Assembly: GCA_965228895.1 (NCBI GenBank)
Contig: OZ245842.1
Coordinates: 2,903,964 to 2,967,963, forward strand
Direction: 5' to 3'
Length of the DNA stretch: 64,000 bases
From: Alphaproteobacteria bacterium
GTDB lineage: Bacteria; Pseudomonadota; Alphaproteobacteria; SP197
The notes below the pieces were generated by a model that ran no database searches, had not been told where the DNA came from, and was given only the letters and a program-made list of their open reading frames with translations. A program made the position numbers and the translations under genes. This document shows, piece after piece, positions 22,638-56,488 of this stretch (position 1 is the first letter of the stretch; every line of letters begins with the position of its first letter).

Positions 22638-22690
22638 GAAAGCCTCTCTCTCCGCGCGCCGCCTTGGCGAAGCGTTAACAGGACCACGTC

Positions 22691-23944: not shown

Positions 23945-24035
23945 GATGGCTCCCGGCGGCGGCCAACGGTCATGTTGGCGGCGCCCATGGGAATAGCGGA
24001 CCGGCCCGGGTGTCAATCGGGAACGGCAGGTGCGG

Positions 24036-24815
24036 TCAACTTTTTTGATCGCCGGCGGAACGAACAATGCCTTCGCGCATCAGATAATCGAAGATCGCCT
24101 CGGCAGCGTCATCGGCTTCCGGGTGATCGAGAAGTTCGGCCCGCCCCTGCACCATCTGCGTCGCGGCGCGCATACGCTCGGCTGCGTTGCCCTCGCCGAC
24201 GATCTTGAGCCGGCGCGGTTTCGGTTTGGCCGGCTGCCAACGACCGTCGAGCGCATAGGGCGTGCTCTGACAGGGCGTCGCCTCGATGATACCGCGGCGC
24301 GCCTGACCGAATGCGACGGGCACCGGTTCGGGCGCGGCCGGCGACACGGTGACGATGGCATTGCGCGGCGCGCTGACCTTGCGCCGGCGCCCGCCCGGCA
24401 GTCCCTGTGCAACGTGAACGTCGCCGCCGTCGAGCGTCAGATCGGCCGCGCCCGGCACCAGCGGACGGCCCGATCGTTCGGCAAGCAGGTAAGACACCAT
24501 GCCGCTCGCCTCGCCGCTTTCGGTGCGCTCGCCCGCCAGCACGAGGGCATCAGGGCGGGCCTCCAGATAGGCGAGCAAGGGTGGCACGATGTCGTCGTCG
24601 GCCGTAACCGTCAGCACATCCATTCGCGCCACGCCCATGCCCAGGTAGTCGCGCAAGGCCGGCTCAGCATCACGACCGACATGAACGAGATCGATTGCAG
24701 CGCCGCCCACGGAACGCGCCAGCCCCACGGCACGGGCATCGAGCGATGCGCGGCGTGGTCTGCCTGACACCGGATGACGGCCCAGCGAGACCAACACGAT
24801 CACGTCGGCGGTCAT
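24036..24815 (-). CDS. etfB: Electron transfer flavoprotein beta subunit
   Basis: EtfB/FixA-like pattern (VIVLVS...D..A). Its start overlaps the stop of etfA. Confidence 0.85.
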   Translation of the reverse strand: MTADVIVLVSLGRHPVSGRPRRASLDARAVGLARSVGGAAIDLVHVGRDAEPALRDYLGMGVARMDVLTVTADDDIVPPLLAYLEARPDALVLAGERTESGEASGMVSYLLAERSGRPLVPGAADLTLDGGDVHVAQGLPGGRRRKVSAPRNAIVTVSPAAPEPVPVAFGQARRGIIEATPCQSTPYALDGRWQPAKPKPRRLKIVGEGNAAERMRAATQMVQGRAELLDHPEADDAAEAIFDYLMREGIVRSAGDQKS

Positions 24816-40254: not shown

Positions 40255-40493
40255 GAATGCCTCTCCCCTGCACCGCCCGCTCTGGAGCGGTTGGTCCTGT
40301 CGTAACAAAAGCCAGGGCGCTTCACTAGCGCCCGACCGGACCCGCCATTGTCACACAGGCGACACCGACTGTGCGTGTGCCGTCATGGAGAGGCCGATTC
40401 GGCGGCGAATCCGGCAGCGAGTGGTGATTCGGCTGTCGAAACGCGGGTCAATTTGCTTGGCGATAGGATGGGCCGGGCCTTAGGGTCCCCTCC

Positions 40494-42833: not shown

Positions 42834-42893
42834 AGCTCGATCACTATGGCGATTTGCGCCAAACTTGGGCGAGTTCGCTGACGGGAGGTGACC

Positions 42894-43403
42894 ATGACCG
42901 GCAAAGCTGACATCCGCGGCCTGCATCACAACGCCTACCGCTGCCGCGATGCCGAGGAGACACGGCAGTTCTATGAGGACTTCCTGGGTCTGGAACTGGC
43001 CGAGGCCTTCGAGATCGCGACGACGCAGACTGGCCGCGACACCCGTGTCATTCATATCTTCTTCGAAATGGGCGATGGGTCGTTCCTGGCCTTCTTCGAG
43101 GCGCCGGGCCAACCCTTCACGTTCAAGGACCAGCACGACTTCGACCTGCACATTGCTCTGGAGGTCAGCATGGAGACGCTGCACGCCATGTTCCAGAAGG
43201 GCAAGGACGCAGGCATCGAAACCCGCGGTATCTCCGACCATGGTTTCATTCACTCGATCTATTTCCGCGACCCCAATGGTTACGTCATCGAGCTGACCGC
43301 CAAGACCGAAACGCGCGATGCCGATGAATGGCAGCGCGTGAAAGGCGGCGCGCGGGCGGCGCTGGACAAGTGGACGGCGACAAAACCGGCGGACGCCGCC
43401 TGA
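42894..43403 (+). CDS. VOC/glyoxalase-family protein
   Basis: ATG 42894 follows GGGAGG at 42883-42888. VOC-like beta-alpha-beta-beta-beta modules. Confidence 0.7.
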   Translation: MTGKADIRGLHHNAYRCRDAEETRQFYEDFLGLELAEAFEIATTQTGRDTRVIHIFFEMGDGSFLAFFEAPGQPFTFKDQHDFDLHIALEVSMETLHAMFQKGKDAGIETRGISDHGFIHSIYFRDPNGYVIELTAKTETRDADEWQRVKGGARAALDKWTATKPADAA

Positions 43404-43435
43404 CATCCGCATGACGGCGCGGTAGTGTCCTCTCC

Positions 43436-44572
43436 ATGACTGAGGCCGCACGCAAAGCGATAGACGGCAACGGGCCGTTCTTCACCTTGCCGCCCCGCTG
43501 GTTCACCGACCCGGCAGTCCTGGCGCGCGAAAAAGAAACGATCTTCTACAAGAGCTGGCGCTATGTCGGGCACGAGAGCGATTTACCCGAACCCGGCAGT
43601 TACATCACCTGTCGAATCGTCGATCAGTCGATCTTCCTGATCCGCAACCGGGATGGCGACATCAAGGCCTTTCACAACGTCTGCCGCCATCGCGCCCATG
43701 AGCTGCTGCAGGGGCACGGTAAGATAAAGGCCGTTATCACCTGCCCCTATCATGCCTGGGCCTATGACAGCGACGGCACCCTAAGGTCAGCGCGCCTGTC
43801 AGACGGCGTGCAGGGCTTCGACACGACGGATTTCAGCCTGGTGCCCGTCCGCGTCGAATCGATGCTGGGCCTGTTGTTCGTCAATCTCGATCCCGACGCC
43901 GTGCCCTTCGCCGAGCAGTTCGCAGGGCTGGCCGATGAGATCACGTCGCTGGTCCCGACATTTCCTGACCTGGTCAAGGTCGAACAGCAGCGCACCCGAA
44001 ACGGCGGCGATGACGTCGTCGACCTGAAGGCCAACTGGAAGGTGCTGATGGACAATTGCAGCGAGTGTTATCACTGCGATCCCGCCCATCCGGCCTTCGT
44101 CGACCTGGTCGACATGGCGAGCTACACGATCGACGTTCGCGACATGTACACACGCCACGAGATGGCGTGCACGAAACCCGCCAACGCAGCCTATGACTAC
44201 CGCACTGACACGACGGTGACGAAAGCCGTTTTCTGGCACCTGTGGCCGAACATGACGCTGGGCGTCATGCCGGGCTCACCGAACTTCGATGTCTTTCTGT
44301 TCGAGCCCGTCGAGGTCGAATCGACGCGCCTGGACGGCGACAGCTTCCGGCTGCCGGACGGCGCGGGCGAAACGGACGCCGCTCGGGCGCGCTATGGTTC
44401 GAATGTTCTGTGGCCCGAGGACCGCGACCTCTGCGAGTCCGTCCAGCGTGGGCTTCATTCACGCGGCTATCAGCGCGGCCGCTTCATGGTCGACGATCAG
44501 CGCAGCGCCATCTCCGAACACGTGCCCGCGTTCTTCCACCACAAGGTCGCCGAGGCGCTCGGCGAGGTCTAA
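43436..44572 (+). CDS. Rieske [2Fe-2S] non-heme iron oxygenase alpha subunit (GbcA/Stc2/CntA-like N-demethylase family)
   Basis: Rieske motif CRHRAHEL...CPYHAW. The C-terminal catalytic domain carries the His ligand context (NCSECYHCDPAHP). No reductase gene is adjacent. Confidence 0.85.
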   Translation: MTEAARKAIDGNGPFFTLPPRWFTDPAVLAREKETIFYKSWRYVGHESDLPEPGSYITCRIVDQSIFLIRNRDGDIKAFHNVCRHRAHELLQGHGKIKAVITCPYHAWAYDSDGTLRSARLSDGVQGFDTTDFSLVPVRVESMLGLLFVNLDPDAVPFAEQFAGLADEITSLVPTFPDLVKVEQQRTRNGGDDVVDLKANWKVLMDNCSECYHCDPAHPAFVDLVDMASYTIDVRDMYTRHEMACTKPANAAYDYRTDTTVTKAVFWHLWPNMTLGVMPGSPNFDVFLFEPVEVESTRLDGDSFRLPDGAGETDAARARYGSNVLWPEDRDLCESVQRGLHSRGYQRGRFMVDDQRSAISEHVPAFFHHKVAEALGEV

Positions 44573-44877
44573 GACCTTAGATGCGCGCTAGAGGGCGTCA
44601 CCAAATGAGTGCTGGCAACACTCTCACGGACGGTCAGTTGGGAGGCCTTGTGGTTCCCATCCTGGCTTGCTCCGGCGGCTTGTGCATTTATGCCAGTTCG
44701 TGGGTGGGTTGTCGGACTGTTGCCCAAGTCCTGCATCATTGACTGGATCGGACGTACCCAATTGCATCTAGGACAAGTCTGGCGATCCCCTGCTTGAACA
44801 AGCTGAGGCAGGCGGCAGCGTGGGATGGCTATCTAGAATGTCGAGAGTGAGCGAAGTGCCGACGATAAAGACAGGTT

Positions 44878-45879
44878 TCAGCAGTCATCGGCTCCGCTGT
44901 TCAAACAACGCTCGATTTCCTCAACGATTTCGTTGACTTCCTCGTCGGAGAGTGAGTCTACCCAACTGCTGATGTGTACGTTCTTGTTGAACTCCAGAAG
45001 GTTCGAGGCTGCGTGCTCAATACTGACGTATAGCGCATCAACAACGGCGTCGTGGCTAGTCTGCTGAAAGAACACCACGCTATCATCAATCACGTACCTA
45101 ACGCTCGTACAGTTGCTCAGTTCCGCCACGCCAAAACTCGATTTTTGCAGTTGTGGTGACAGATCTTCCTTGAAGAACTTATCCAGTTCAACGAGGACGT
45201 ACGCCCTTGCTAACTCTGGGCAAACTTTCGCAGTCACATAGTGGTCGGCAGCATACTGGAAGATCACGAATACCGGGAAGAATCCGCCGTCACGATAGAC
45301 ATACATCACAGGGCCGTTCAGCACTTCTTCACAGTTCTCATCGCCATTACAGCCAAATCTCTCACTAAGCCTTTCAAAGACGTCACTCATCACGAGAATT
45401 CTCGAAACGTGACCGTCGTGATTCTGGCCCGCTGTCGCAGCCAACCACTCCCGGCGCAGGAACGCATAGAAATCGCCATACCCGTCAAATGTAATGTGAT
45501 TGAAACGATAACCATCGATGTAAGCGACCAAGTCGGTGTTCGCTTGCTGCTTCTGGCGAAAGAAGACGCGAACGTCAGCCGCCGTGTCACCAAATGCGCC
45601 CATCAGTGAGGACGTGATACCGGACCGATACTCTTCCGTCATCTCCGTGGTTCCTTCGACAGCGAAGTTGATACCGCCACGGTCGAACGACGCGGCTTCC
45701 GCCTCATCTTCTGCAGAGTTCGCGGCCTCAATAAACTCCACTGTTCCGGCCGCCAGGGAGAGCTGGGTGCCCGATCCAAAACCAAGTGAAACCACAAACA
45801 ATGCCAACAGAAACTGATTCGAAAGAGCCTTCGACACAGCAGCCTCTTGTTCTCTTGACCAATTCTCAATTGTTAGCAC
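44878..45879 (-). CDS. Hypothetical secreted/membrane-anchored protein in low-GC insertion
   Basis: 333 aa. N-terminal hydrophobic anchor FLLALFVVSLGFGSG. GC is about 50%, far below the window average. No recognised domain. Confidence 0.6.
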   Translation of the reverse strand: MLTIENWSREQEAAVSKALSNQFLLALFVVSLGFGSGTQLSLAAGTVEFIEAANSAEDEAEAASFDRGGINFAVEGTTEMTEEYRSGITSSLMGAFGDTAADVRVFFRQKQQANTDLVAYIDGYRFNHITFDGYGDFYAFLRREWLAATAGQNHDGHVSRILVMSDVFERLSERFGCNGDENCEEVLNGPVMYVYRDGGFFPVFVIFQYAADHYVTAKVCPELARAYVLVELDKFFKEDLSPQLQKSSFGVAELSNCTSVRYVIDDSVVFFQQTSHDAVVDALYVSIEHAASNLLEFNKNVHISSWVDSLSDEEVNEIVEEIERCLNSGADDC

Positions 45880-45972
45880 GAAGCGTGTTACGGTTTCGAT
45901 GTTCTTTGCTCCGAAGACCGGGATCTCATCGAAACCATCCAGCGCAGTTTTATTGACGCGGCTCTTGGTACA

Positions 45973-46040
45973 ACGCCATCTCCGAACACGTGCCCGCGTT
46001 TTTCCACCGCAAGGTCGCCGAGGCTGTCGGTGACGTCTGA
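45973..46040 (+). repeat. 68-bp imperfect direct repeat duplicating the 3-prime end (last 22 codons plus stop) of the Rieske oxygenase gene
   Basis: About 60 of 68 positions are identical to 44505-44572. It translates to NAISEHVPAFFHRKVAEAVGDV*, against SAISEHVPAFFHHKVAEALGEV* in the intact gene. Confidence 0.7.
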
Positions 46041-46043
46041 CGC

Positions 46044-46505
46044 CTAGACGGGAGCCATGCCCTTCTCGGCCAGTTCCTTCTTCGCCTCGTCCGTCTTGTC
46101 GAGGCCTTCCAGCCCCATGCCTTTCAGCACGCCGGGCGCCTTGGTGTACTGGATGTTTTGGTAGGTCGTGATCTCAACCCGGTTGCCCCAGGGGTCCAGG
46201 AAGTCCAGGAAACGGCCCGGCATGATATCGACACCCATCGCCTTCAGGGTCTCGCGGACGAGTTCCTTGTCGTCAACCGCGATTCCAAAATGTCGTTTAT
46301 CATCAGCCTCTTGAGAGCGACCTTTGGCAAAGTTGATGAACTGGTCTCCGAAATAGATGAAGGCGGCGTTTTCGCTCTTGGACTTAAGCTCGAAGTTTAA
46401 GAAGCCCCCGTAGAAGTCGAGCGCTTGGTCGATATCGCCGACCTCCAACGCGATGTGATTGATACCGACCGCGTTGGCCTTCTTCGCACCGTTTCCTGTC
46501 GCCAT
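46044..46505 (-). CDS. VOC/glyoxalase-family protein
   Basis: Start ATG 46505. GINHIALEV... and a second VOC module. GC slightly below local average. Confidence 0.7.
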   Translation of the reverse strand: MATGNGAKKANAVGINHIALEVGDIDQALDFYGGFLNFELKSKSENAAFIYFGDQFINFAKGRSQEADDKRHFGIAVDDKELVRETLKAMGVDIMPGRFLDFLDPWGNRVEITTYQNIQYTKAPGVLKGMGLEGLDKTDEAKKELAEKGMAPV

Positions 46506-46557
46506 GGCGTCCTCCTTGCCTATGTTCATCTAACGATGGGAGCGCCGTCGAACCGGT

Positions 46558-47016
46558 TCAAGACCATGTCTTGCCGCCCGCGATCTTGGCCTTGGCCGCC
46601 TGGACGAAACGGCTGGCGTCCGACGGCTGCTGGGGCAGGTCGTCGGCGATTGTGTGCCAGGGCACCTTGCCCTCGATGCCCGTGTGATAGAGGTCCGGCG
46701 GCCAGTCTTCCGGCCGGTCGAAGCTGCCCAGGGTGACGGCCGGGACCTTGTCATCAACGAGCCAGAAATCGAGCGACGTACCGCAGGCTCCGCAGAACCC
46801 CCGCCTGGCCCACGCCGACGACTGGTAATAGCGCGGCTCACCCTGGGTGTAGCGGAAGGCGCCCAGGGGGAACGTAGCAAAGACGCCGAAGATGCCGCCA
46901 AGCGCCTTCTGGCACATCTTGCAGTGACAGTAGGCGACCCATTCCGTCGCGGCATCGGCTTGCCAACGTATGGCGCCGCACAGACAGCCGCCGGTCACCG
47001 GCAAGACGCCCGTCAT
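46558..47016 (-). CDS. GFA-family zinc protein (third paralog)
   Basis: Start ATG 47016 in an ATGA overlap with the GST stop. Motifs CLCGAIRW...CHCKMCQ...CGACG. Confidence 0.8.
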   Translation of the reverse strand: MTGVLPVTGGCLCGAIRWQADAATEWVAYCHCKMCQKALGGIFGVFATFPLGAFRYTQGEPRYYQSSAWARRGFCGACGTSLDFWLVDDKVPAVTLGSFDRPEDWPPDLYHTGIEGKVPWHTIADDLPQQPSDASRFVQAAKAKIAGGKTWS

Positions 47017-47630
47017 CAGCCAAAGACCTTTTTGACTGCCGGGCGCGCCGCGGCATTGGCGACGACGCGCTGGGCGTTGGGAAACTCGTCCATGGTCGGA
47101 TGGCCCATGTCCGGGCTGAGCCATGTCGCCAACATGCGCACGTGAATGTCGGCGGCGGTGAAGCGATTGCCGACCAGCCAGTCGTCGCCGCCGATCGCCT
47201 CGTCGATCATGCCCCAGATCTCACGCAGCCGGATGCACGACCGCGCCCGTGCACTCGCGATGTGCTCTTCGCTCTCGCAGAAACGAAGCGGGTAGTAGGT
47301 GAGCTGATAGGCCATCTGCAGGGTGTTCGACATATAGACCAACCACTGCAAGAACGGCCCGCGCAAGGGATCGTCCGCGGCCGGCGCCAGGCCCGCTTCC
47401 GCGTGACGGTCGGTGAGAAACACGGTGATCGCCGAGGCCTCATGCATGGCGCCGCCATCGTAGATCAGAACGGGGACCCAACCGTTGGGATTGAGTTCCA
47501 GAAGTTCCGGCGAACGCGGCTCATTGATGTCGATGCTGGAATCGAGAAGCTCGTACGGGGCGCCGATTTCCTCGAGCACCGCGCGCGTGCCCATGGCGGC
47601 CGAGTGATCGGCGTAAAACAACTTGTACAT
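47016..47630 (-). CDS. Glutathione S-transferase
   Basis: GST N-terminal thioredoxin-like (MYKLFYADHSAAMGTRAVLEE...) and C-terminal helical domains. GGAGA SD. Confidence 0.85.
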   Translation of the reverse strand: MYKLFYADHSAAMGTRAVLEEIGAPYELLDSSIDINEPRSPELLELNPNGWVPVLIYDGGAMHEASAITVFLTDRHAEAGLAPAADDPLRGPFLQWLVYMSNTLQMAYQLTYYPLRFCESEEHIASARARSCIRLREIWGMIDEAIGGDDWLVGNRFTAADIHVRMLATWLSPDMGHPTMDEFPNAQRVVANAAARPAVKKVFG

Positions 47631-47648
47631 GGCGTGTCTCCGGAATGG

Positions 47649-48758
47649 CTAGGCCGTATAGACGGCAACGGGTTCGCCGAGCTTATCGGGTTTGGGCTGA
47701 ATGCCCAGCCCCGGCGTCTCGGGCGCTGTCATGGTGCCGTCGACCCAGTCCGGTTTGCCGTCCGCCAGGGAGACGTCGTGAAGTTCGGTCGCGTCCCACA
47801 TGGAGTGGCATAGCGCCGCCGGCGTCGACTGGGCGAGATGCAGAATGGCGGCGGTGGCGATCTCGGAACCGCCGGTATCCTGCAGCGACATGGCAAGCCC
47901 TGCTTGGGCAGCAACATCGCGCATGAGCCGGGCCTTGGTCAGACCGCCGACCTTACCGATCTTGATGTTGATGGCCGCGCATACATTGTCGGCGATGGCG
48001 CGCAACAGTACCGTCAGGTCATCCAGGCTTTCATCCAGCATGATCGGCTGCGAAACCATGCGACTGACGGCAAGGCATTGTTCATAGGTCGCGCAAGGCT
48101 GCTCGAACAGCAGCGTCAGACCGCGCCGGCGCGCCGCTTCCATGACAGCGACAGCATCGCCTTGCAGCCAACCGCCGTTGCAGTCGCACAACGCATCGTC
48201 GCCCATGGCAACAATGTCGGCGACCACATCGAGGCGTGCGATATCCTCCGTCACGTCGCCACTGAACTTGACGGAGTGTTTGCCGTAGCCGCGTTGGCGC
48301 AGGGTCTTGAGATTGGCCAGCGTCTCCTCGGGGCCAGCGGCCGACACGCTGCTCACCAGGTCGACCGCGCCATCGGCGCGTCCGCCCATGAGGTCACAGA
48401 CCGGCATGCCCGCGTCCTTGCCCAGGATATCCCAGCACGCCATGTCGATGGCCGTCTTGCCATAGGGATGCCCCGGTAGCGCGCGATCCATAACGTCGTT
48501 GATCCGTTCCGTATGACGGGGGTCGCGGCCCAGGATCGTCGGCGCGAGCTCATCAATGACGGCGCGCGCACCCTTGGCGAAGGCCGGCAGGTAGCTGGAG
48601 CCAAACGGACATGTCTCGCCCCACCCGGTGATACCAGCATCCGTCTCCAGTGCAACAATCGTGGTGTCGAGCGACGTCCATGTGCGGCCGCCGGACAACC
48701 GGTACGGCTTCGTCATCGGCAGATCGACCTGATAGACGCGTATGGCGATTATGCGCAT
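47649..48758 (-). CDS. Enolase-superfamily enzyme, MLE subgroup-like (candidate betaine/N-substituted amino acid racemase or epimerase, HpbD-like)
   Basis: Capping plus barrel domains. Strand-2 lysines (KHSVKFSG) and strand-6 lysine (IKIGKVGG). Metal-ligand acids (D..E..D). Start ATG 48758 preferred over TTG 48767. Confidence 0.8.
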   Translation of the reverse strand: MRIIAIRVYQVDLPMTKPYRLSGGRTWTSLDTTIVALETDAGITGWGETCPFGSSYLPAFAKGARAVIDELAPTILGRDPRHTERINDVMDRALPGHPYGKTAIDMACWDILGKDAGMPVCDLMGGRADGAVDLVSSVSAAGPEETLANLKTLRQRGYGKHSVKFSGDVTEDIARLDVVADIVAMGDDALCDCNGGWLQGDAVAVMEAARRRGLTLLFEQPCATYEQCLAVSRMVSQPIMLDESLDDLTVLLRAIADNVCAAINIKIGKVGGLTKARLMRDVAAQAGLAMSLQDTGGSEIATAAILHLAQSTPAALCHSMWDATELHDVSLADGKPDWVDGTMTAPETPGLGIQPKPDKLGEPVAVYTA

Positions 48759-48776
48759 GCGATCCAACCGGGGCGC

Positions 48777-50051
48777 TCAGGAACCACGCGCCATCGCCAT
48801 AAGCGTCTCGACGTAGCGATCGGCGAAGGCCTCGGCGGCGGCGCGGTCACGCATCGGTTCGTCGTAACCGAACGAAAGACACGCGCCCGCGGCTGTCGAG
48901 ACAATCGCGACCATGACGGGATGCAGGCCGTGGTTCTGCGACGGCATGATCAAGATACGGGATATGCCGACCTGTCGTGCGGACAAGCGATCGAGGTCAC
49001 CGACATCCGAGACACAGATGCCGCTCGCGAACACCTCGCTCGACGCGGCGATCTGGTCGGCCTGTGCGACCGTAGTTTCGAGCGGCACACGGGTCTCCAT
49101 CAGAAGCGCCGGTGGGCGGTTGTCGCGAAGCCTTTCACCCATGGCGCGCGCGAGTTCGATCAGGCTGAGATCGGCGTGCTCGGGACCGGCGAAGATGTTG
49201 ATGGAGGCCACAAACTCGCCGACGGTGGTTCGCGAAATTGCCGGTTCGCAATCGGCGCGCACATCGGTCGGTTCGACAATTCCTGTCCACGGCGTGTGCC
49301 CCGGCAACGCGGGTCCCGCACGCACCGCAGCGGCGCAAAAGCCCGCGGCCAGATGGATGCCCTCACCGTGCAATCGATCGTGCAACGCCTGAAGATCCCC
49401 GCTCGGGAGAACCCTGAGTAGGGCGCGCGGCTGTCGGTCTTTTGCCGGGGCGCCCCTATCGACCGGCCAGATGGCATCGTCTGGCCATTCGGCGAAGATG
49501 CCGGCCTCGCCTTTCAGTCCGGCTGCCGCCAGCGCGCGTTCGGGCGCGTCGGTCAGCGTCAGCGAAGCTCGGTCGAGGGCATCGGGATCACGGGCCAGAA
49601 GATCGATCTCGTTGAACACAACCAGCGCGGAACGCCCGTCGATGGCCGCGTGATTGGTCACCAAGATCAGCCAAACCGCCTTTCCCGACGCATCCGTCAG
49701 CACCACCAGCCGCCATGACGTCACGGCGACATCGTCTAAAATGGCCGCTTCACGCGCATAGACCGCCTCCATGTCGAACGGCTCGCCTATGGCCTCCGTC
49801 CTGATCTCAATGGTCTCGAACGGCACATCGCACACCCACCACAGATTGTTGCGCGTCTCGATACGCCCGCGCATGAGCGGATGGCGGCCGTGGATGATCT
49901 TGAGAGCGCGACGGAGATTGGCAACGTCCATCGGCCGCTGCAACTCCGCCATGGCGACCAGTTGCACAGCGCCATTGCAACGCCTTTTCAGCTCGACAAG
50001 CAACGCCTCCTGCGGGCCTAGCTCTCGCTCGAAGACGTCCGTATTTCTCAT
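48777..50051 (-). CDS. Stand-alone condensation/acyltransferase-domain protein (HxxxDG motif; PapA5/NRPS C-domain-like)
   Basis: 424 aa with HAAIDGRS, matching the catalytic HHxxxDG consensus of CAT-like acyltransferases. No adenylation or carrier-protein genes nearby. Confidence 0.6.
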   Translation of the reverse strand: MRNTDVFERELGPQEALLVELKRRCNGAVQLVAMAELQRPMDVANLRRALKIIHGRHPLMRGRIETRNNLWWVCDVPFETIEIRTEAIGEPFDMEAVYAREAAILDDVAVTSWRLVVLTDASGKAVWLILVTNHAAIDGRSALVVFNEIDLLARDPDALDRASLTLTDAPERALAAAGLKGEAGIFAEWPDDAIWPVDRGAPAKDRQPRALLRVLPSGDLQALHDRLHGEGIHLAAGFCAAAVRAGPALPGHTPWTGIVEPTDVRADCEPAISRTTVGEFVASINIFAGPEHADLSLIELARAMGERLRDNRPPALLMETRVPLETTVAQADQIAASSEVFASGICVSDVGDLDRLSARQVGISRILIMPSQNHGLHPVMVAIVSTAAGACLSFGYDEPMRDRAAAEAFADRYVETLMAMARGS

Positions 50052-50088
50052 GTTGAACCCGTCATTTCGCTTGTCGGTATTCTGCCTG

Positions 50089-50856
50089 CTAAGTCTTGAG
50101 CTTTGTCATCGCCTTATCGAACTCGCGCCGGTTGATCGGGCAGGTGCTGACCAAGTGCCCGTCGCAGACGACGTGAAACACGCCATAGGCCGACGGCGCA
50201 CGGCGGCGCACGTCTTTGGCCGACGTTAGTTCGACCTCATTGAAGGCAACTCCATAGTCGTCTGCGGCCTCGCGCAACATGGTGACGGTGTCGTCGATAT
50301 AGGGACATTGGTCTGAGCGCATGACCGTCAGGCCCTTGCCCAGGGCGGCGCGCTTCTTCTCCCAATTGCCGGTGAACGTCGGCAGGTCAACGTCGCCCCA
50401 AGACTTCACCATCAACGAGAACGTGGGCGGCGCTTCTTCGACGCAGGTGAAGCCGTGTTTTTCGAGGAAGCGCCGGCCGATCAGCCAGTTGCCTTCGCTC
50501 GTCACCATCGCAATGCCGGGGAAACCCGCGCGCTTCGCCTCGTTGACGGCGAGGTCCATAAGGTGGCCACTCAGGCCACTGCCCTTACTGCGCCCGACGA
50601 CCCACAGACAGTGGATGACAAGATAGTCCGCCGCCTCGATCGACCGCCACGCATAGGCGCCAGGGATCGTCTCGACAAACCCGCGGCCGCCATCCCGGAT
50701 CATGTGGATCTTCAGGCCTTCGGCGAAACGTTTGTCGAGCCACGCGCGTTTTCGTTTGTAGCCGTCAGCCTTGCGTCGGCTCATCAAACAGAAAAACCCA
50801 GTCTCGTCCACGTTGTCCGGACCGACCTCAACAATGTTGAACGCGCCGGCAGCCAT
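50089..50856 (-). CDS. GNAT N-acetyltransferase with C-terminal YoaP-like domain
   Basis: Start ATG 50856, 5 nt after the upstream gene stop. GNAT core, then a C-terminal CPYIDD...VFHVVCDG segment resembling the YoaP-like domain. Confidence 0.65.
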   Translation of the reverse strand: MAAGAFNIVEVGPDNVDETGFFCLMSRRKADGYKRKRAWLDKRFAEGLKIHMIRDGGRGFVETIPGAYAWRSIEAADYLVIHCLWVVGRSKGSGLSGHLMDLAVNEAKRAGFPGIAMVTSEGNWLIGRRFLEKHGFTCVEEAPPTFSLMVKSWGDVDLPTFTGNWEKKRAALGKGLTVMRSDQCPYIDDTVTMLREAADDYGVAFNEVELTSAKDVRRRAPSAYGVFHVVCDGHLVSTCPINRREFDKAMTKLKT

Positions 50857-50861
50857 CGCGG

Positions 50862-52901
50862 CTAAAGATCCTTGACCAACCGCAGGGCATCGTAGACCGC
50901 CGCATGAATGTTGCGACTGGCAACGCAATCGCCGATGCGAAAGAGCTGGAAGCGTCCGTCCGGGTTGGTGCGTAGGGCCTGCGGCTCGCCCGCGATCAAC
51001 GCGTCATAGTCGGTCTGGCCACGATTGACCGAAAGCTCCTTGAGTTCGCCATAGAGCCCGTCATTGGCGAGCGTGCCGTAATCGGAGACGACCTGATCGA
51101 CGACACGCTCTTCCTCCTCGTGGCTGTAGTCGTTGTGCAGGAGACAGACCAGATGACCGTTCTCGCGGTAGATCTGTTTGAGATGGTGGTCAGGCGTCAA
51201 CAGGACGTCCGACTTATAGAGGTTCTGCATGTGGGTCGGCAGGTTGGTGGCGCCAACCTCCTCGCCGATCATGCGCCCATTGGTCACGACTTCGACCAGC
51301 GCGCCGCGCTCGGCCAGGAACTCCGCACAGGACGGGCCCTGCTGCATGCCACTCTCGTCGTAGAGCAACACGTTCTTCGCAGGCTCGACCGCGCCGGTCA
51401 GAATGTCCCAGACACTGGCGGCCAGGTCGGCGCCATCGTAATAGCCGGTGTTGGGCCGCCCGCCGGTCGCCAGGATCACCACGTCCGGGTTCTCATTCAC
51501 AATGGCGTCACGGGTCGCTTCGGTGCCGTAGCGTTGGTCAATGCCCAGTTTCGTCACCTGCCCATCGAACCAGCGCACGATGCCCGATAGATTTTCGCGC
51601 CACGGTGCCTTGGCCGCGATGTTGATCTGACCGCCGGGTTGTTCAGCCATCTCGAACAGGATGACATCGTGACCGCGTTCGGCGGCGACGCGGGCCGCCT
51701 CCAGGCCACCTGGGCCTGCCCCGACCACGACCACCTTGCGCGCCGATGACGCCTTGTCGATGACATGGGGCATGGTCTGTTCGCGGCCGGTCGCGGCGTT
51801 GTACGCGCACAATGCCTCGCCGCCCATCGAGACCCGGTCGACACAATAGGTCGCGCCGACACACTGACGGATATCGTCGACGCGCCCTTCCACCAGTTTG
51901 TTGACGATATGCGGATCGGCGATGTGGGCTCGGGTCATGGCAACCATGTCGATATGCCCCTCGGCGATGGCGCGATCGGCCGTCGGCAGATCGCGGATTG
52001 CCGAGGCATGCAGAACAGGGATGTCGACCTGGGCCTTCACCGCGCTTGCCAGATGGAGAAACGGCGCCGGCGGAAAGCTCATGTTCGGCATCAGCATAGC
52101 GAGCCCCGACCAGTCGGTGCCGTGACTTTGATAGACAGACAAGAAGTCGATCAGGCCGGACTGGGCGAAACGTGTCGCGATTGTCATGCAGTCGGACTGA
52201 TCGAGGCCGCCTTCCAGAAGTTCGTCGCCGGACAGGCGCATGCCGACGATAAAGTCGTCGCCGACGGCCTCGCGGATCGCCTCGAACACCTCCAGGCCAA
52301 AGCGCATGCGGTTATCCAGGCTGCCACCGTAGCCGTCGGTCCGTTGGTTGACGCTGGGCGACAGAAAGGCATCGATCAGATGTTGCGCGGCGGCGATCAC
52401 CTCGACGCCATCGAGGCCGCCTTCCCGGCAACGCTGGGCCGCGCGCGCGTAGCACGCGATGATGCGGCGGATGTCCCAATCTTCGGCTTCCTTCGGAAAG
52501 CTGCGGTGCAGCGGCTCACGCACCGGCGACGGCGCCACCAGCGGCATCCAGTTGCCGCCGTCCCAACGCCCCCGCCGGCCTATATGGGTGATCTGGCACA
52601 TGGTCGCCGCACCATGGCTGTGCACCCGCTCGGCGAGCGCCTTCAGGTGCGGGATGACATCGTCGTGGGCCACCGATAGCTGGCGGAACGGCAGCGGCGA
52701 ATCCGGCGCGACCGACGACGAGCCGCCGAACATGGTAAGCGCAATGCCGCCCCTCGCTTTTTCCTCGTGATAGAGCTGGTAGCGCTCGCCCGGCATGCCA
52801 TCCTCGGCATAGGCCGGCGCGTGCGCCGTCGACATGATGCGGTTCCTGAGCGTCAGCCCCTTGATGGTCAGGGGTTTCAAAAGCGCGTCGTACTGGGCCA
52901 T
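50862..52901 (-). CDS. OYE-like FMN oxidoreductase fused to FAD/NAD(P)-binding domain, second DgcA-like paralog
   Basis: 679 aa, colinear with 27872-29914 and identical over long stretches (MAQ.DALLKPLTIK..., RIGDCVA.RNIHAA.YDA.RL). There is no adjacent dgcB/etf, so its electron-transfer partner is unknown. Confidence 0.85.
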   Translation of the reverse strand: MAQYDALLKPLTIKGLTLRNRIMSTAHAPAYAEDGMPGERYQLYHEEKARGGIALTMFGGSSSVAPDSPLPFRQLSVAHDDVIPHLKALAERVHSHGAATMCQITHIGRRGRWDGGNWMPLVAPSPVREPLHRSFPKEAEDWDIRRIIACYARAAQRCREGGLDGVEVIAAAQHLIDAFLSPSVNQRTDGYGGSLDNRMRFGLEVFEAIREAVGDDFIVGMRLSGDELLEGGLDQSDCMTIATRFAQSGLIDFLSVYQSHGTDWSGLAMLMPNMSFPPAPFLHLASAVKAQVDIPVLHASAIRDLPTADRAIAEGHIDMVAMTRAHIADPHIVNKLVEGRVDDIRQCVGATYCVDRVSMGGEALCAYNAATGREQTMPHVIDKASSARKVVVVGAGPGGLEAARVAAERGHDVILFEMAEQPGGQINIAAKAPWRENLSGIVRWFDGQVTKLGIDQRYGTEATRDAIVNENPDVVILATGGRPNTGYYDGADLAASVWDILTGAVEPAKNVLLYDESGMQQGPSCAEFLAERGALVEVVTNGRMIGEEVGATNLPTHMQNLYKSDVLLTPDHHLKQIYRENGHLVCLLHNDYSHEEEERVVDQVVSDYGTLANDGLYGELKELSVNRGQTDYDALIAGEPQALRTNPDGRFQLFRIGDCVASRNIHAAVYDALRLVKDL

Positions 52902-52903
52902 CG

Positions 52904-53431
52904 TCAGCGAGCCCTCTGTCCGACGGCTGCGGCCAAGGTGGTCATCGCATCGGCCTCAAGGCGATAGTGACGGTGTCCCAAGTCGATCATCCCGATTGCC
53001 TCGTAAAACTCTATCGCCGGAAGTCCTTCCTCGACAAACAGCTCGATACGAATCCAATCGCGCTCGACGGCAAGTCTCGCCACCTCTGCCATCAACTGCC
53101 GCGCGATGCCATGCTGGCGGTATTCTGGTCCGACATAGAGCGCATGAACAATGCCCATCGGCCGCCCCCTCCATCCGGCATAGCCGCGAAAGAACGAGAC
53201 AAAGCCGATAACCGTTCGATCGACCTCGGCCGCGAGAGCCTCAAAGAGAGGGTCGACACCGAATCCCGCGCGAGAAATTGCATCGACCGTAAGTTGTGCA
53301 TGGAAGCCGGGCCGATGGCTCTCGATCAGACAACACGTCAGGCGATGGAGCGCCTCGGCATCTTCGACACATGCCGGCCGCACGGAAGCCCGAACCAACG
53401 CGCGCTCCTGCGATCCGTGCACGGTCGGCAT
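52904..53431 (-). CDS. GNAT-family N-acetyltransferase
   Basis: Start ATG 53431. Acetyl-CoA-binding motif ...RQHGIARQLMAEVARLA.... Confidence 0.7.
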   Translation of the reverse strand: MPTVHGSQERALVRASVRPACVEDAEALHRLTCCLIESHRPGFHAQLTVDAISRAGFGVDPLFEALAAEVDRTVIGFVSFFRGYAGWRGRPMGIVHALYVGPEYRQHGIARQLMAEVARLAVERDWIRIELFVEEGLPAIEFYEAIGMIDLGHRHYRLEADAMTTLAAAVGQRAR

Positions 53432-53444
53432 CCGCCTCGCCAGC

Positions 53445-54746
53445 CTAACGCGCGACGCGGTCGCGGTATTGGTAATAGCGCTGCACGATCGGCAGGAACC
53501 AGGGATTGCCGTCATAGAGCGGGATGGTCGGAAAGGCCAACCCCTCGAACGCGCACTCGGCTTCCGGCGTTCCCAGGATGCGCTGTGCGGTCTTGTAGCC
53601 GAGATAGGTCTGCTTCACGACGCCCGACCCATTGCAGGCGAGCGCAAAGTGCAGGCCATCCTTGACGCCGGTATGCGGCAGCTTGTCGAAGGCGAACGCG
53701 ACGTTGCCTGTCCAGCTATGGGTGACCTTGATGTCTTTCAGTTCCGGGAACACGCCGGTCATGAAGTCGTGCAGGATTTTGCCGCTCTCGTGTGTCTCGA
53801 CATCGCGCGTCTTGGCGCGGCCGCCGAAGATGACGCGCTTCCGGTCGGGCGACGGCCGGTAGTAGTAGAGGATCTTCTTGGTGTCGGCGATCATCCGGTG
53901 ATTGGGGAACAACCGGTTCATGGTCTCGACCGGCAGTTCCTCGGTCGCGATGATGTAGCTGCCGACCGGGACCAGGCGGCGGCGGAAATTCTGCGCCGCG
54001 CGCGGCGTGTAGCCGTTGGTCATGACGGCGACCTCTTTGGCTCTGACCGTGCCGCGCGATGTCGTCACCTGGAATCCGTCGCCGTCCCGGCTGATGCGCT
54101 CGACCGGCGTGTGGGCCGCCAGCTTGACCCCGGCCGCCATCACGCGATCGAGGAACTCCTGATGGTAGACGGCCGGATGCAGACCGCCGCCCGACAACGT
54201 CACCTTGCCGCCGTGATAGATATCGGTCGCGACCTCGTTCGCCACATCGCCCTTGGCGATCATGTGGCCGGTATCGAGGCCGACTTCCTTTTTCACCAGG
54301 TCGGCGTCGCGCGCCATGGCTTCATAGTGGCTGGGGGCGTGGGCGCCGACGAAACGGCCGACCTTCTGATAGTGGCACTGCATCTGTTCGGACGCGATGA
54401 ACTCGTCGAAAAACACCATGGCGTTGTTGGCTTCGCGCACCAGGGCGGCGGCCTTGGTCTGGCCGTACTTGGCCTTCAGCTCGCTGTAGCCCAGCTTGAG
54501 CCCGCCACCAGCCATGCCGCCGCTGCGCGAGCTGGCACCGTAGCCGGGTTCGCTGGCTTCCAGGATCAGGACGTCACGCCCGGCGCGGGCCAGGTAGAGC
54601 GCGGCCGCCATGCCGGCATAGCCGGAGCCGACCACGGCCACGTCGACGGTTTCGGGCAAGGCGATCGGAACGAACTCAGGCCGGGGCGCCTCCTCCCACC
54701 AATAGGGCGTTGCCTTCCAGTCGTCGGCAAACGGGGCCTCGGCCAT
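53445..54746 (-). CDS. FAD-dependent oxidoreductase of the DAO family (D-amino acid/glycine/gamma-glutamylputrescine oxidase-like)
   Basis: Start ATG 54746. Dinucleotide fold VAVVGSGYAGMAAALYLARAG. First gene of the nine-gene minus-strand cluster. Confidence 0.85.
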   Translation of the reverse strand: MAEAPFADDWKATPYWWEEAPRPEFVPIALPETVDVAVVGSGYAGMAAALYLARAGRDVLILEASEPGYGASSRSGGMAGGGLKLGYSELKAKYGQTKAAALVREANNAMVFFDEFIASEQMQCHYQKVGRFVGAHAPSHYEAMARDADLVKKEVGLDTGHMIAKGDVANEVATDIYHGGKVTLSGGGLHPAVYHQEFLDRVMAAGVKLAAHTPVERISRDGDGFQVTTSRGTVRAKEVAVMTNGYTPRAAQNFRRRLVPVGSYIIATEELPVETMNRLFPNHRMIADTKKILYYYRPSPDRKRVIFGGRAKTRDVETHESGKILHDFMTGVFPELKDIKVTHSWTGNVAFAFDKLPHTGVKDGLHFALACNGSGVVKQTYLGYKTAQRILGTPEAECAFEGLAFPTIPLYDGNPWFLPIVQRYYQYRDRVAR

Positions 54747-54916
54747 GGGTGTCCTCCTGTGTTTCACCGCAACCTAGCGGATTCACGCCGCCACCGACAA
54801 GACGGGCGAACCCGACCAAAGGCGACCTTGGTCTCGTTGTCGGCGACGGAAACTGGCCGTTTTGCCGTGCAACCGCGTGTCATAAGCAGCCCGGCAGGCC
54901 CGAGGAGGCAGTAACG

Positions 54917-56488
54917 ATGAACGAAGAGGCACCGAGCGGACGGCGCGGCAGGCGCCATCGCGGCGAACACGGCGGCAGCGGCGCGCGGCGCGCCCAGCGC
55001 AGCCACAAGTATTCGACCGACGCCCTGCCCTATATCCAGCGCAACATCCCGCTGACGGAGGTGCTGACCGAAGAGGCGCTGGAGATCATCGAAAACAATG
55101 CCGAAACGGTCATGGAAGAGGTCGGCATCGCCATCCACGACGACCAGGAGGTCGTCGACCTGTGGAAGGAGGCCGGCGCCGATGTCGGCAAGGACGGCCA
55201 AACGCTCCACGTGCCCCGCGGCCTGGCGCGCAAGCTGATTTCGACCGCGCCCAACCACTTCATCCAGCATGCCCGCAACCCCGACCGCAAGGTCAAGATC
55301 GGCGACGGCGCGACCGTCTTCGCGCCGGTCTACGGCCCGCCCTTCATCCGCAATCTGGACGATGGCCGGCGCTACGCGACAATCGAGGATTTCCGCAACT
55401 TCGTGAAGCTGGCCTATATGACGCCGGCCATGCACCATTCCGGCGGCACAGTGTGCGAGCCGGTCGATATCCCGGTCAACAAGCGTCACCTGGATATGGT
55501 CTATTCCCATATCCGCTATTCCGACAAACCGTTCATGGGTTCGGTGACGGCGCCGGAGCGCGCCGAAGACACGGTGGCGATGGCGAAGCTGGTGTTCGGC
55601 GATCAGTTCGTCGAAGACAATTGCTGCATCATCAACCTGATCAACGCCAACTCGCCGATGACCTTCGACGGCACCATGCTGGGCGCGTTGAAGGTCTATG
55701 CCCGTCACAACCAGGCCTGCGTCGTCTCGCCGTTCATTCTGGCCGGCGCCATGAGCCCGGTGACCGTCGCCGGCACGCTGGCCCAGTTGCTGGCCGAAGC
55801 CATGGTCGGCATGGCGACGACCCAGTTGGTCCGGCCTGGCGCACCGGTGGTGTTCGGCACCTTCGGCAGCTCGATCTCCATGCAGTCGGGCGCGCCGACC
55901 TTCGGCACGCCGGAACCGACCCAGGTGCTGCTGGGCAGCGCGCAACTGGCGCGCCGTCTGGGCGTGCCGTTCCGTTCCGGCGGATCGTTGTGCGGCTCCA
56001 AGATCGCCGACGCGCAGGCGGCCTATGAAAGCGCCAACACGCTGCTGCCGACGATGCTGGGCGGCGTCAACTTTGTGCTGCACGCGGCCGGCTGGCTCGA
56101 AGGCGGTTTGGCGTCCGGATACGAGAAGTTCGTCATGGACGCCGATCAGCTCGGCATGATGCAGGTGCTGGCCCGTGGCGTCGACATCTCGGAGAACGGC
56201 CAGGCGATGGATGCCATCCGCGAGGTCGGCCCGGGTAGTCACTTCCTGGGCTGCGCCCACACCCAGGCCAACTTCGAGACCGCGTTCTACCGCTCGACCA
56301 TCGCCGACAACAACAGCTTCGAGCAGTGGGAAGCCGAAGGCAGCCAGGATGCCATGCAGCGCGCCAACAAGCTGTGGAAGGAGATGCTGGCATCCTACGA
56401 GGCGCCTGCCATCGACCAGAGCGTCGACGAGGCGCTCAACGCCTTCATCGCCGAAAAAAAGGCTGCGGTGCCCGATTCCTTCACTTGA
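54917..56488 (+). CDS. MttB-superfamily methyltransferase (non-pyrrolysine; glycine betaine/proline betaine/carnitine:corrinoid methyltransferase-like)
   Basis: ATG 54917 preceded by GAGGAGG. 523 aa TIM-barrel MttB-family pattern with no in-frame amber codon. No corrinoid-protein or MtgA-like genes in the window. Confidence 0.85.
   Translation: MNEEAPSGRRGRRHRGEHGGSGARRAQRSHKYSTDALPYIQRNIPLTEVLTEEALEIIENNAETVMEEVGIAIHDDQEVVDLWKEAGADVGKDGQTLHVPRGLARKLISTAPNHFIQHARNPDRKVKIGDGATVFAPVYGPPFIRNLDDGRRYATIEDFRNFVKLAYMTPAMHHSGGTVCEPVDIPVNKRHLDMVYSHIRYSDKPFMGSVTAPERAEDTVAMAKLVFGDQFVEDNCCIINLINANSPMTFDGTMLGALKVYARHNQACVVSPFILAGAMSPVTVAGTLAQLLAEAMVGMATTQLVRPGAPVVFGTFGSSISMQSGAPTFGTPEPTQVLLGSAQLARRLGVPFRSGGSLCGSKIADAQAAYESANTLLPTMLGGVNFVLHAAGWLEGGLASGYEKFVMDADQLGMMQVLARGVDISENGQAMDAIREVGPGSHFLGCAHTQANFETAFYRSTIADNNSFEQWEAEGSQDAMQRANKLWKEMLASYEAPAIDQSVDEALNAFIAEKKAAVPDSFT

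What the first reader, a model, noticed from the sequence alone, without database searches (positions are those of the whole stretch)
54917..56488. Orphan non-pyrrolysine MttB-family methyltransferase divergent from the catabolic operon, with no corrinoid partner
Characterised non-pyrrolysine MttB members (glycine betaine, proline betaine, carnitine and γ-butyrobetaine methyltransferases) work with a cognate corrinoid protein and a methylcorrinoid:THF methyltransferase encoded alongside. Here the gene stands alone, divergent from the operon above, in an organism that also encodes oxidative demethylases for the same class of substrates. Either the partners are elsewhere, or this family member functions differently.
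Basis: partly seen in the sequence, partly recalled or inferred. Interest (0 to 1): 0.55.

Follow-up and report, generated by a model that had tools for sequence, protein, structure and literature searches.

The report
Unlinked aerobic glycine-betaine methyltransferase (MtgB)
The gene is a real, intact pyrrolysine-free MttB-family methyltransferase, but standing apart from its vitamin-B12 carrier protein is an already described, common arrangement in aerobic Alphaproteobacteria, so the finding is ordinary.

Summary
Window 54917-56488 (+) encodes a full-length 523-aa MttB-family protein with Leu (TTG) where methanogen MttB has pyrrolysine. No B12-binding, pterin-binding, RamA or DUF1638 gene lies anywhere in the 64 kb.

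The "orphan, may work differently" reading is not supported. The protein is 70-80% identical to orthologues in 80 other species, whereas paralogues are 50% or less. In 37 of 73 of those loci the orthologue is transcribed divergently from a corrinoid protein gene, followed by DUF1638, MTHFR, a pterin-binding methyltransferase and RamA. This includes Sinorhizobium meliloti (73% identity, PDB 4YYC). In 30 of 73 loci no partner is nearby.

Published work on Ruegeria pomeroyi and Phaeobacter inhibens shows that aerobic MtgB enzymes use one shared, unlinked MtgC/MtgD pair. It also shows that they coexist with oxidative demethylases.

Here the neighbours are dimethylglycine-dehydrogenase-like genes and sarcosine oxidase. 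They fit a pathway from glycine betaine to dimethylglycine, sarcosine and glycine.

I could not show that the partners are present in this same genome.

A side observation: MtgB, MtgD, MtgE and RamA all carry arginine-rich terminal tails, and MtgC has an acidic N-terminus.

The parts
54917..56488 (+). MttB-superfamily methyltransferase, 523 aa, non-pyrrolysine. It is the orthologue of the aerobic alphaproteobacterial MtgB (putative glycine betaine:corrinoid protein methyltransferase).
   Evidence: Pfam PF06253 at 1.4e-231. PDB 4YYC 833 bits; D. hafniense MtgB 2QNE/9YCE 409/405 bits. 73% identity to the S. meliloti gene that lies next to a cobalamin-binding protein gene.
54935..55003 (+). N-terminal arginine-rich segment (residues 7-29, SGRRGRRHRGEHGGSGARRAQRS). 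It is conserved in the aerobic clade and absent from D. hafniense MtgB.
   Evidence: All 81 homologues carrying the PYIQR anchor have at least 6 R/K upstream of it. The alignment to 2QNE starts only at residue 36.
55988..55990 (+). TTG codon (Leu358) at the position of the UAG/pyrrolysine codon of methanogen MttB. The Rfam PYLIS_3 match (55988-56087) begins here.
   Evidence: Alignment to 7XCL, the sequence itself, and Rfam RF02510 at 38.1 bits against a 38 cut-off.
55331..56107 (+). Span holding the equivalents of the D. hafniense MtgB glycine-betaine contacts. Y139 (=Y97), R353 (=R312) and H389 (=H348) are conserved. F356 is replaced by G397, with W393 four residues upstream (motif AAGWLEGG, shared with 4YYC).
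   Evidence: HMMER alignments to 2QNE and 9YCE. Residue roles are taken from PMC13080624.
54747..54916 (.). 170-bp divergent intergenic region. It contains the motif GTGTCATAAG (54877-54886) about 30 nt before the start codon, conserved only in the closest clade.
   Evidence: Upstream regions compared. In 1.5 Mb of loci the motif occurs upstream of MttB only in L001, L002 and L082-L085.
53445..54746 (-). DAO-family FAD oxidoreductase, 433 aa, the divergent neighbour. The pairing with MttB is conserved only in close relatives.
   Evidence: Pfam DAO at 2.5e-53. No PDB relative at E <= 1e-10. The DAO/MttB pair is present in L002, L083, L084 and L085.
40494..53515 (.). Variable block between the DMGDH-like gene and the DAO/MttB pair. 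It holds a Mo-hydroxylase, glyoxalases, a Rieske oxygenase, a strain-specific insertion, GFA, GST, an MR_MLE enzyme (closest to cis-3-hydroxy-L-proline dehydratase), an unknown 424-aa protein, an OYE/FadH-type flavoenzyme and a GNAT. It is not conserved next to MttB.
   Evidence: Pfam, NCBIfam and PDB searches. Only L002 shares these neighbours.
37819..40308 (-). Dimethylglycine-dehydrogenase-like protein (DAO-FAO_M-GCV_T). Its orthologue is the direct divergent neighbour of MttB in related genomes.
   Evidence: Pfam. 82% identity to the gene adjacent to MttB in L003 and L004, and 64-72% in L006, L008, L015, L018, L022, L037 and L040.
20184..29914 (-). A second DMGDH-like gene, a DddP-like M24 protein, ETF alpha and beta, and a DgcB-like (DUF3483+CCG) / DgcA-like (OYE) pair. 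Together these are oxidative N-demethylation machinery.
   Evidence: Pfam and NCBIfam.

Best explanation
The gene encodes the substrate-specific module (MtgB) of the modular cobalamin-dependent methyltransferase system of aerobic Alphaproteobacteria.

Proposed mechanism. MtgB binds a carboxylate-bearing quaternary amine, most probably glycine betaine, in its TIM-barrel pocket. It transfers one N-methyl group to the Co(I) corrinoid of a separate small corrinoid protein, MtgC. A pterin-binding protein, MtgD, then passes the methyl group to tetrahydrofolate. A RamA/RACo-type activase, together with DUF1638, repairs oxidised cobalamin.

In this genome those partners are not next to the gene. They are inferred to be encoded elsewhere and shared with other MttB paralogues and with the split methionine synthase, as in Ruegeria pomeroyi and Phaeobacter inhibens. 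The product, dimethylglycine, would then be oxidised by the DMGDH-like and DgcAB-like enzymes in the window and by the sarcosine oxidase just downstream.

What is shown: family membership, absence of pyrrolysine, absence of partners in the window, orthology to partner-linked genes, and purifying selection.

What is inferred: presence of mtgC and mtgD elsewhere in this genome, the substrate, and the direction of methyl flow.
For: Family and integrity:
- Full-length MTTB domain.
- 24 synonymous and 0 non-synonymous differences between strains.

Orthology to partner-linked genes:
- 70-80% identity to orthologues in 80 species, against 41-50% for second MttB copies in the same loci.
- 40 of 73 orthologue loci carry a B12-binding protein gene, and in 37 it is the immediately upstream divergent gene. 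DUF1638 is present in 38, Pterin_bind in 37, RACo in 35 and MTHFR in 27.
- The public annotation of S. meliloti shows the same layout: cobalamin-binding protein, DUF1638, MTHFR, methyltetrahydrofolate cobalamin methyltransferase and ASKHA protein on one side of the orthologue, with bmt and a glycine betaine/proline ABC transporter ATP-binding protein on the other. The S. meliloti protein is 73% identical to the window protein.

Published precedent:
- PMC12478193 shows by proteomics and knock-outs that R. pomeroyi needs the unlinked MtgC (SPO2160) and MtgD (SPO1863) for glycine betaine demethylation. Two pfam06253 proteins are induced, and up to seven pfam06253 ORFs occur per genome.
- bioRxiv 10.64898/2025.12.19.695462 shows that P. 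inhibens lacking both mtgB1 and gbcAB cannot grow on glycine betaine, and that the two systems coexist.

Substrate:
- Three of the four glycine-betaine contact residues of D. hafniense MtgB are conserved.
- The orthologue of the window's DMGDH-like gene is the direct neighbour of MttB in relatives.
- soxBDAG flanks the orthologue in the closest relatives, and SoxG lies about 10 kb downstream here.

Sequence signature:
- The N-terminal Arg-rich tail is shared with other modules of the system.
Against: - No corrinoid, pterin-binding or RamA gene could be shown in this same genome. Searches seeded with relatives' MtgC and RamA returned no hit carrying the contig-length fingerprint of this genome. 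That result is uninformative rather than negative.
- F356 of D. hafniense MtgB, whose F356L variant raises Km several-hundred-fold, is Gly here. The pocket is therefore not identical and the substrate is not proven.
- No biochemical assay exists for this clade. The 4YYC entry is named only as a putative trimethylamine methyltransferase.
- The window protein was never compared with the experimentally studied proteins themselves (R. pomeroyi SPO2108/SPO2134, P. inhibens MtgB1). The link to them runs through S. meliloti and the paper's own BLAST-based assignment.
- The immediate neighbours here (DAO, OYE, MR_MLE) are not glycine betaine genes.
Confidence: 0.8

Rival explanations
1. The mechanism is the same (MtgC/MtgD-dependent methyl transfer) but the substrate is a different quaternary amine, for example proline betaine, hydroxyproline betaine, carnitine or gamma-butyrobetaine. 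It would feed the divergent DAO/OYE/MR_MLE operon.
For: F356 of the glycine-betaine pocket is replaced by Gly. The divergent operon holds an OYE/FadH-type flavoenzyme of the kind used for N-methyl amino acid demethylation (my own knowledge) and an enolase-superfamily enzyme. That enzyme is closest to cis-3-hydroxy-L-proline dehydratase (408 bits; PDB 3EEZ 339 bits and 4MGG 330 bits). Characterised MttB paralogues differ in substrate (PMC13080624).
Against: The W393/G397 motif is shared with the S. meliloti orthologue, which sits beside bmt and a glycine betaine/proline ABC transporter gene. The OYE/MR_MLE block is next to the orthologue only in one 96%-identical MAG. The conserved neighbours across species are DMGDH-like genes, sarcosine oxidase and the MtgE-like gene. 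Identity of 70-80% across orders argues for a conserved function.
Confidence: 0.14
2. A true orphan. The genome lacks an MtgC-type corrinoid protein, and the enzyme either uses free cobalamin or another carrier (for example the B12 domain of MetH), or transfers methyl groups by a corrinoid-independent route.
For: No partner lies in 64 kb, and none could be traced to this genome. D. hafniense MtgB can methylate free cob(I)alamin in vitro.
Against: The failure to trace a partner is a limit of the tools, not a negative result. 30 of 73 orthologue loci are equally partner-less locally, and the two studied unlinked genomes do have MtgC and MtgD. The window protein keeps the conserved Arg-rich N-terminal tail that characterises the modules of the MtgC system. 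Strong purifying selection on an orthologue of partner-linked genes suggests the function is unchanged.
Confidence: 0.05
3. A decaying or silent relic left behind after rearrangement of a former mtg cluster.
For: It is separated from the DMGDH-like gene by a variable 14.6-kb block, and accessory genes lie downstream of it (aminoglycoside phosphotransferase, nitrile hydratase).
Against: The reading frame is intact with a good ribosome-binding site. There are 0 non-synonymous against 24 synonymous differences between strains. The upstream motif is conserved in the clade.
Confidence: 0.01

Closest known systems
Aerobic MtgBCD(E) modular cobalamin-dependent glycine betaine demethylase / split methionine synthase of Ruegeria pomeroyi, Phaeobacter inhibens and Sinorhizobium meliloti (Mausz et al. 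2025, PMC12478193)
   Same: Both are pfam06253 proteins in an aerobic alphaproteobacterium. The window protein is 73% identical to the S. meliloti gene that the paper reports as colocalised with mtgC, mtgD, mtgE and the reactivation genes. The gene can be unlinked from mtgC and mtgD, as in R. pomeroyi and P. inhibens. It coexists with oxidative demethylases. DMG and sarcosine demethylation genes lie nearby.
   Different: Presence of mtgC and mtgD in this genome is not shown. The local context (DAO, OYE, MR_MLE, then aminoglycoside phosphotransferase and nitrile hydratase) is lineage-specific. I did not compare the sequence directly with SPO2108, SPO2134 or P. inhibens MtgB1.
PDB 4YYC, deposited as 'putative trimethylamine methyltransferase'. 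Its aligned sequence matches the S. meliloti orthologue; the organism assignment is partly from my memory.
   Same: 833 bits over residues 6-523. It has the same AAGWLEGG motif and the same Arg-rich N-terminus.
   Different: It is a structural-genomics entry with no assigned substrate.
Desulfitobacterium hafniense MtgB (DSY3156; PDB 2QNE, 9YCE), glycine betaine:corrinoid methyltransferase
   Same: Same fold family (about 409 bits). Non-pyrrolysine. The Y97, R312 and H348 equivalents are conserved.
   Different: It comes from an anaerobe and is described as working with a cognate corrinoid protein and MtgA; that these are encoded alongside it is my recollection of Ticak et al. 2014 and was not checked here. 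It lacks the Arg-rich N-terminal tail. F356 is Gly in the window protein.
Methanosarcina MttB (PDB 7XCL), pyrrolysine-dependent trimethylamine methyltransferase
   Same: Same superfamily (130 bits).
   Different: It has pyrrolysine where the window protein has Leu358. The window protein is far below the TIGR02369 cut-off (276 against 525).

Membership tests
MttB superfamily (Pfam PF06253) | Full-length match to the MTTB profile above the gathering score | tested here: met
   769 bits against a cut-off of 25; residues 18-518 cover profile positions 2-499 of 500.
Pyrrolysine-dependent trimethylamine methyltransferase MttB (TIGR02369) | In-frame UAG (pyrrolysine) at the active site, and a score above the equivalog cut-off | tested here: not met
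   There is no in-frame stop. The pyrrolysine position aligns to Leu358 (TTG). The score is 276 bits against a cut-off of 525.
MtgB glycine betaine methyltransferase (D. hafniense type) | The four glycine-betaine contact residues Y97, R312, H348 and F356 | tested here: inconclusive
   Y139, R353 and H389 are conserved. F356 aligns to G397, with W393 nearby as a possible substitute aromatic residue.
MtgB glycine betaine methyltransferase (D. hafniense type) | Gene encoded beside its corrinoid protein and methylcorrinoid:THF methyltransferase | tested here: not met
   None is present in the 64-kb window.
Aerobic MtgBCD(E) system (PMC12478193) | pfam06253 protein orthologous to the mtgB that lies next to mtgC in genomes where the cluster is intact | tested here: met
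   73% identity to the S. meliloti gene divergent from the cobalamin-binding protein gene. 37 of 73 orthologue loci have that arrangement. Paralogues are 50% identical or less.
Aerobic MtgBCD(E) system (PMC12478193) | mtgC (corrinoid protein), mtgD (pterin-binding protein) and a RamA/DUF1638 reactivation pair present in the same genome | tested here: inconclusive
   They are absent from the window. Searches seeded with relatives' MtgC and RamA listed only the 120 best clusters each, and none carried this genome's contig length. The rest of the genome cannot be read with these tools.
Aerobic MtgBCD(E) system (PMC12478193) | Glycine-betaine-dependent induction, and loss of glycine betaine use on deletion | not testable with these tools
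   This needs culture work. The organism is known only from metagenome assemblies.

The most novel reading that the evidence does not exclude
Proposal: the arginine-rich terminal tails are docking peptides that bind the strongly acidic N-terminal segment of MtgC, so that interchangeable modules encoded anywhere in the genome can compete for one corrinoid carrier.

The tails sit at the N-terminus of MtgB, including this protein and its paralogues, and at the C-terminus of the MtgD-, MtgE- and RamA-like proteins. If the proposal is right, the tail on the window protein is a sequence-level marker that an apparently orphan MttB still depends on MtgC.

A separate, less likely novel reading is a truly partner-less enzyme (about 5%).
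Probability: 0.3. Interest if true: 0.5.

Novelty: already known. Interest (0 to 1): 0.17.

Why it matters
As a finding it mainly corrects an outdated expectation. In aerobic Alphaproteobacteria, MttB-family genes are often scattered and share one corrinoid/pterin core that also serves as the methionine synthase. A lone MttB gene is therefore not evidence of new chemistry. For annotation, the gene should be read as a cobalamin-dependent first step (probably glycine betaine to dimethylglycine) that complements, rather than duplicates, the flavin-dependent demethylases around it. The only element that might repay further work is the pairing of Arg-rich tails with the acidic MtgC N-terminus. It could explain how the modular system assembles and could serve as a marker for MtgC-dependent modules.

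Tried and rejected
1. Tracing the partners in the same genome. I searched the 5.8-billion-protein collection with a relative's MtgC and RamA. I also listed members of the ten largest or most likely MtgC clusters, looking for the 5,528,408-bp or 1,643,648-bp contig that carries the window protein. No match appeared. MtgC is so conserved (the 120th hit is still 87-89% identical) that the listing is saturated, so the test is uninformative.

2. Walking outward with the look-up of encoding contigs from other window genes failed. One further call (57) failed on a frame error in my coordinates. The record held (ENA ERZ26167852 contig_1) is a 98.6%-identical strain, not the window itself.

3. Conservation of the divergent operon. 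The hypothesis that MttB is functionally tied to the OYE/MR_MLE/GNAT genes was rejected, because they recur only in L002.

4. A shared operator between this gene and the mtgC operons. The conserved upstream motif GTG[TC]CATAAG is confined to the closest clade. Nothing can be said about co-regulation.

5. The Rfam PYLIS_3 hit inside the gene was rejected as a pyrrolysine signal. It reflects coding-sequence homology, and the aligned codon is TTG.

6. No cobalamin riboswitch reached the Rfam gathering score in the window.

7. The promoter and terminator scan was uninformative.

8. The Rieske oxygenase as GbcA was rejected (159 bits against a 670 cut-off).

9. PHROGs gave nothing for the three unknown ORFs.

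Full report
**What is there.** The ORF at 54917-56488 (+) begins with an ATG eight bases after GAGGAGG and encodes 523 residues. It matches Pfam MTTB (PF06253) over its whole length at 1.4e-231. Against the equivalog model for the pyrrolysine-dependent trimethylamine methyltransferase it scores 276 bits, well below the 525 cut-off. There is no in-frame stop. In the alignment to Methanosarcina MttB (PDB 7XCL), the pyrrolysine position falls on Leu358, codon TTG at 55988-55990. An Rfam PYLIS_3 match that starts exactly there (38.1 bits against a 38 cut-off) is therefore coding-sequence homology, not a recoding signal. The gene is divergent from a DAO-family oxidoreductase gene (53445-54746, -).

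**No partners in the window.** Pfam scans of about fifty ORFs spanning the 64 kb found no B12-binding, Pterin_bind, RACo or DUF1638 domain. tblastn with those proteins from relatives found nothing better than E = 0.2.

**The gene is functional.** The exact protein is also encoded on a 1.64-Mb ENA contig whose DNA is 98.6% identical to the window. Between the two strains the gene has 24 synonymous and no non-synonymous codon differences. Against a 96%-identical MAG the counts are 84 and 22.

**What the orthologues show.** A scan of one genome per species returned 584 relatives, and the best 80 (70-96% identity) were fetched with up to 10 kb of flank on each side, where the contig allowed. Second MttB copies in those same loci are only 41-50% identical to the window protein, so the 70-80% group is an orthologous set. 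I called ORFs in all loci, clustered them and checked representatives with Pfam.
- Of 73 loci in which the orthologue was recovered, 40 contain a corrinoid protein of about 232 aa (B12-binding_2 plus B12-binding).
- In 37 of them that gene is the immediately upstream, divergently transcribed gene.
- It is typically followed by DUF1638, a "Virulence_fact" protein, a formyltransferase-like protein, MTHFR with its C-terminal partner, a Pterin_bind protein of about 320 aa, and a RACo/RamA activase.
- A single-domain homocysteine S-methyltransferase lies nearby in 31 loci.
- The public annotation of S. meliloti shows the same layout, plus bmt and a glycine betaine/proline ABC transporter ATP-binding protein gene. 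The S. meliloti protein is 73% identical to the window protein and corresponds to PDB 4YYC (833 bits).
- Thirty of the 73 loci, mostly Rhodospirillales-like relatives, have none of these partners in the flank. The window's arrangement is therefore common within the orthologous group.

**What the literature already says.** Mausz et al. (PNAS 2025, PMC12478193) showed that aerobic Ruegeria pomeroyi demethylates glycine betaine with pfam06253 proteins (SPO2108, SPO2134). These work with a corrinoid protein MtgC (SPO2160) and a pterin-binding protein MtgD (SPO1863). MtgC and MtgD lie at separate loci and also form a split methionine synthase with MtgE. RamA and DUF1638 are induced too, genomes hold up to seven pfam06253 ORFs, and in S. 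meliloti the genes are colocalised. A 2025 preprint (10.64898/2025.12.19.695462) reports that Phaeobacter inhibens has four such genes. Deleting mtgB1 impairs growth on glycine betaine when cobalt is replete, and deleting both mtgB1 and gbcAB abolishes it. The cobalamin-dependent and oxidative routes coexist and are switched by cobalt supply.

**Local context and likely substrate.**
- The window's second DMGDH-like gene (37819-40308) is the orthologue (82%) of the gene that lies directly divergent from MttB in the nearest large-contig relatives.
- In relatives at 82-85% identity, the orthologue is flanked by the heterotetrameric sarcosine oxidase operon, and in two of the three it is also paired with the DAO gene.
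- In the 98.6%-identical ENA strain (L001), and so presumably in this genome, SoxG lies about 10 kb downstream of MttB.
- The 14.6 kb between the DMGDH-like gene and MttB is a variable block. Its OYE, MR_MLE and GNAT genes recur next to the orthologue only in the 96% MAG.
- The MR_MLE enzyme is closer to cis-3-hydroxy-L-proline dehydratase-like structures than to hydroxyproline-betaine epimerases.
- The Rieske oxygenase is not GbcA.
- The oxidative enzymes in the window (two DMGDH-like proteins, a DgcAB-like pair with ETF) belong to types that act on tertiary and secondary amines. They are later steps of the same pathway, not competitors for the quaternary amine.
- Of the four residues that bind glycine betaine in D. 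hafniense MtgB (Y97, R312, H348, F356; PMC13080624), three are conserved (Y139, R353, H389). F356 aligns to G397, with W393 nearby. The same motif occurs in 4YYC.

Glycine betaine is therefore the most likely substrate, but it is not proven.

**What I could not do.** I tried to find the corrinoid protein or RamA of this same genome by searching with relatives' proteins and looking for the contig length that carries the window protein. Nothing matched. Only 120 clusters are listed per search, and MtgC is 87-95% identical across orders, so the result says nothing either way. I cannot claim that the partners exist in this genome; that step is inferred.

**Side observation.** The window protein has an arginine-rich N-terminal segment (residues 7-29).
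- The segment is conserved in the clade: all 81 homologues with the PYIQR anchor have at least 6 R/K upstream.
- It is also present in the two paralogues examined and absent from D. hafniense MtgB.
- In the related loci, an Arg-rich C-terminal tail (at least 5 Arg in the last 25 residues) occurs in 28 of 36 MtgD-like, 31 of 31 MtgE-like and 31 of 34 RamA-like proteins.
- By contrast it occurs in 0 of 43 MtgC-like, 1 of 39 DUF1638, 0 of 28 MTHFR and 89 of 1017 other proteins.
- MtgC-like proteins have a strongly acidic N-terminus, with a mean of 9.1 D/E and 0.2 K/R in the up to 32 residues (typically 23-25) before a conserved anchor.
- The held literature does not mention this.

An electrostatic docking role is my speculation.

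**Verdict.** The gene is a real, conserved, ordinary member of the aerobic MtgB clade in its frequent unlinked arrangement. The arrangement and its explanation are already published. Interest is low.

Noticed in passing
window 54935-55003; loci L006-L081 (C-termini of the MtgD-, MtgE- and RamA-like ORFs); proteins P0124-P0243: Arginine-rich terminal tails sit on other modules of the MtgC-based system: the N-terminus of MtgB and the C-termini of MtgD-like (28/36), MtgE-like (31/31) and RamA-like (31/34) proteins. The background rate is 8.8%, and MtgC itself has none (0/43). MtgC has a very acidic N-terminal stretch of about 23 residues. This may be an electrostatic docking code. It is not mentioned in the papers I could search.
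   Followed up: partly
window 55988-56087 (+): An Rfam PYLIS_3 (pyrrolysine insertion sequence of mttB) match lies right at the gathering score, inside a gene that has no UAG. The model's first position falls on the Leu358 TTG codon. This is coding homology rather than a recoding element.
   Followed up: yes
window 44578-45970 (repeats at 44503-44577 and 45971-46045): A 1.39-kb segment absent from the 98.6%-identical ENA strain is flanked by 75-nt direct repeats (87% identical) that duplicate the 3' end of the Rieske oxygenase gene. It has low G+C (0.56 against about 0.63) and carries a 333-aa ORF (44878-45879, -) with no Pfam, NCBIfam or PHROGs match.
   Followed up: partly
window 58582-59373 (-) and 59441-60819 (+): A protein that passes the NCBIfam APH(3') aminoglycoside O-phosphotransferase cut-off (288 bits against 205) sits between a chorismate mutase gene and nitrile hydratase alpha/beta genes, just downstream of MttB. 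This block separates MttB from the sarcosine oxidase genes that adjoin it in relatives.
   Followed up: no
window 22691-24067 (-): An M24-family protein scores 421 bits against the DMSP lyase DddP model (cut-off 600). It lies between a DMGDH-like gene and the etfAB/dgcAB-like genes.
   Followed up: no
window 54877-54886; L001, L002, L082-L085: The motif GTG[TC]CATAAG lies about 30 nt upstream of the MttB start and is conserved only in the closest clade. In 1.5 Mb of related loci it was otherwise found once, on the opposite strand just downstream of the MttB orthologue in L079. It may be a lineage-specific promoter or operator element.
   Followed up: partly
locus L082 4570-7119: In an 82%-identical relative, the cobalamin lower-ligand genes (CobT-like DBI_PRT, CobS, CobC-like His_Phos_1) lie a few kb upstream of the MttB orthologue. 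This is another genomic link of the clade to B12.
   Followed up: no
window 48777-50051 (-) and 50089-50511 (-): Two conserved ORFs of unknown function (424 aa with a weak PapA_C/condensation-like hit, and 140 aa) lie inside the OYE/MR_MLE operon. They have no NCBIfam or PHROGs match.
   Followed up: no
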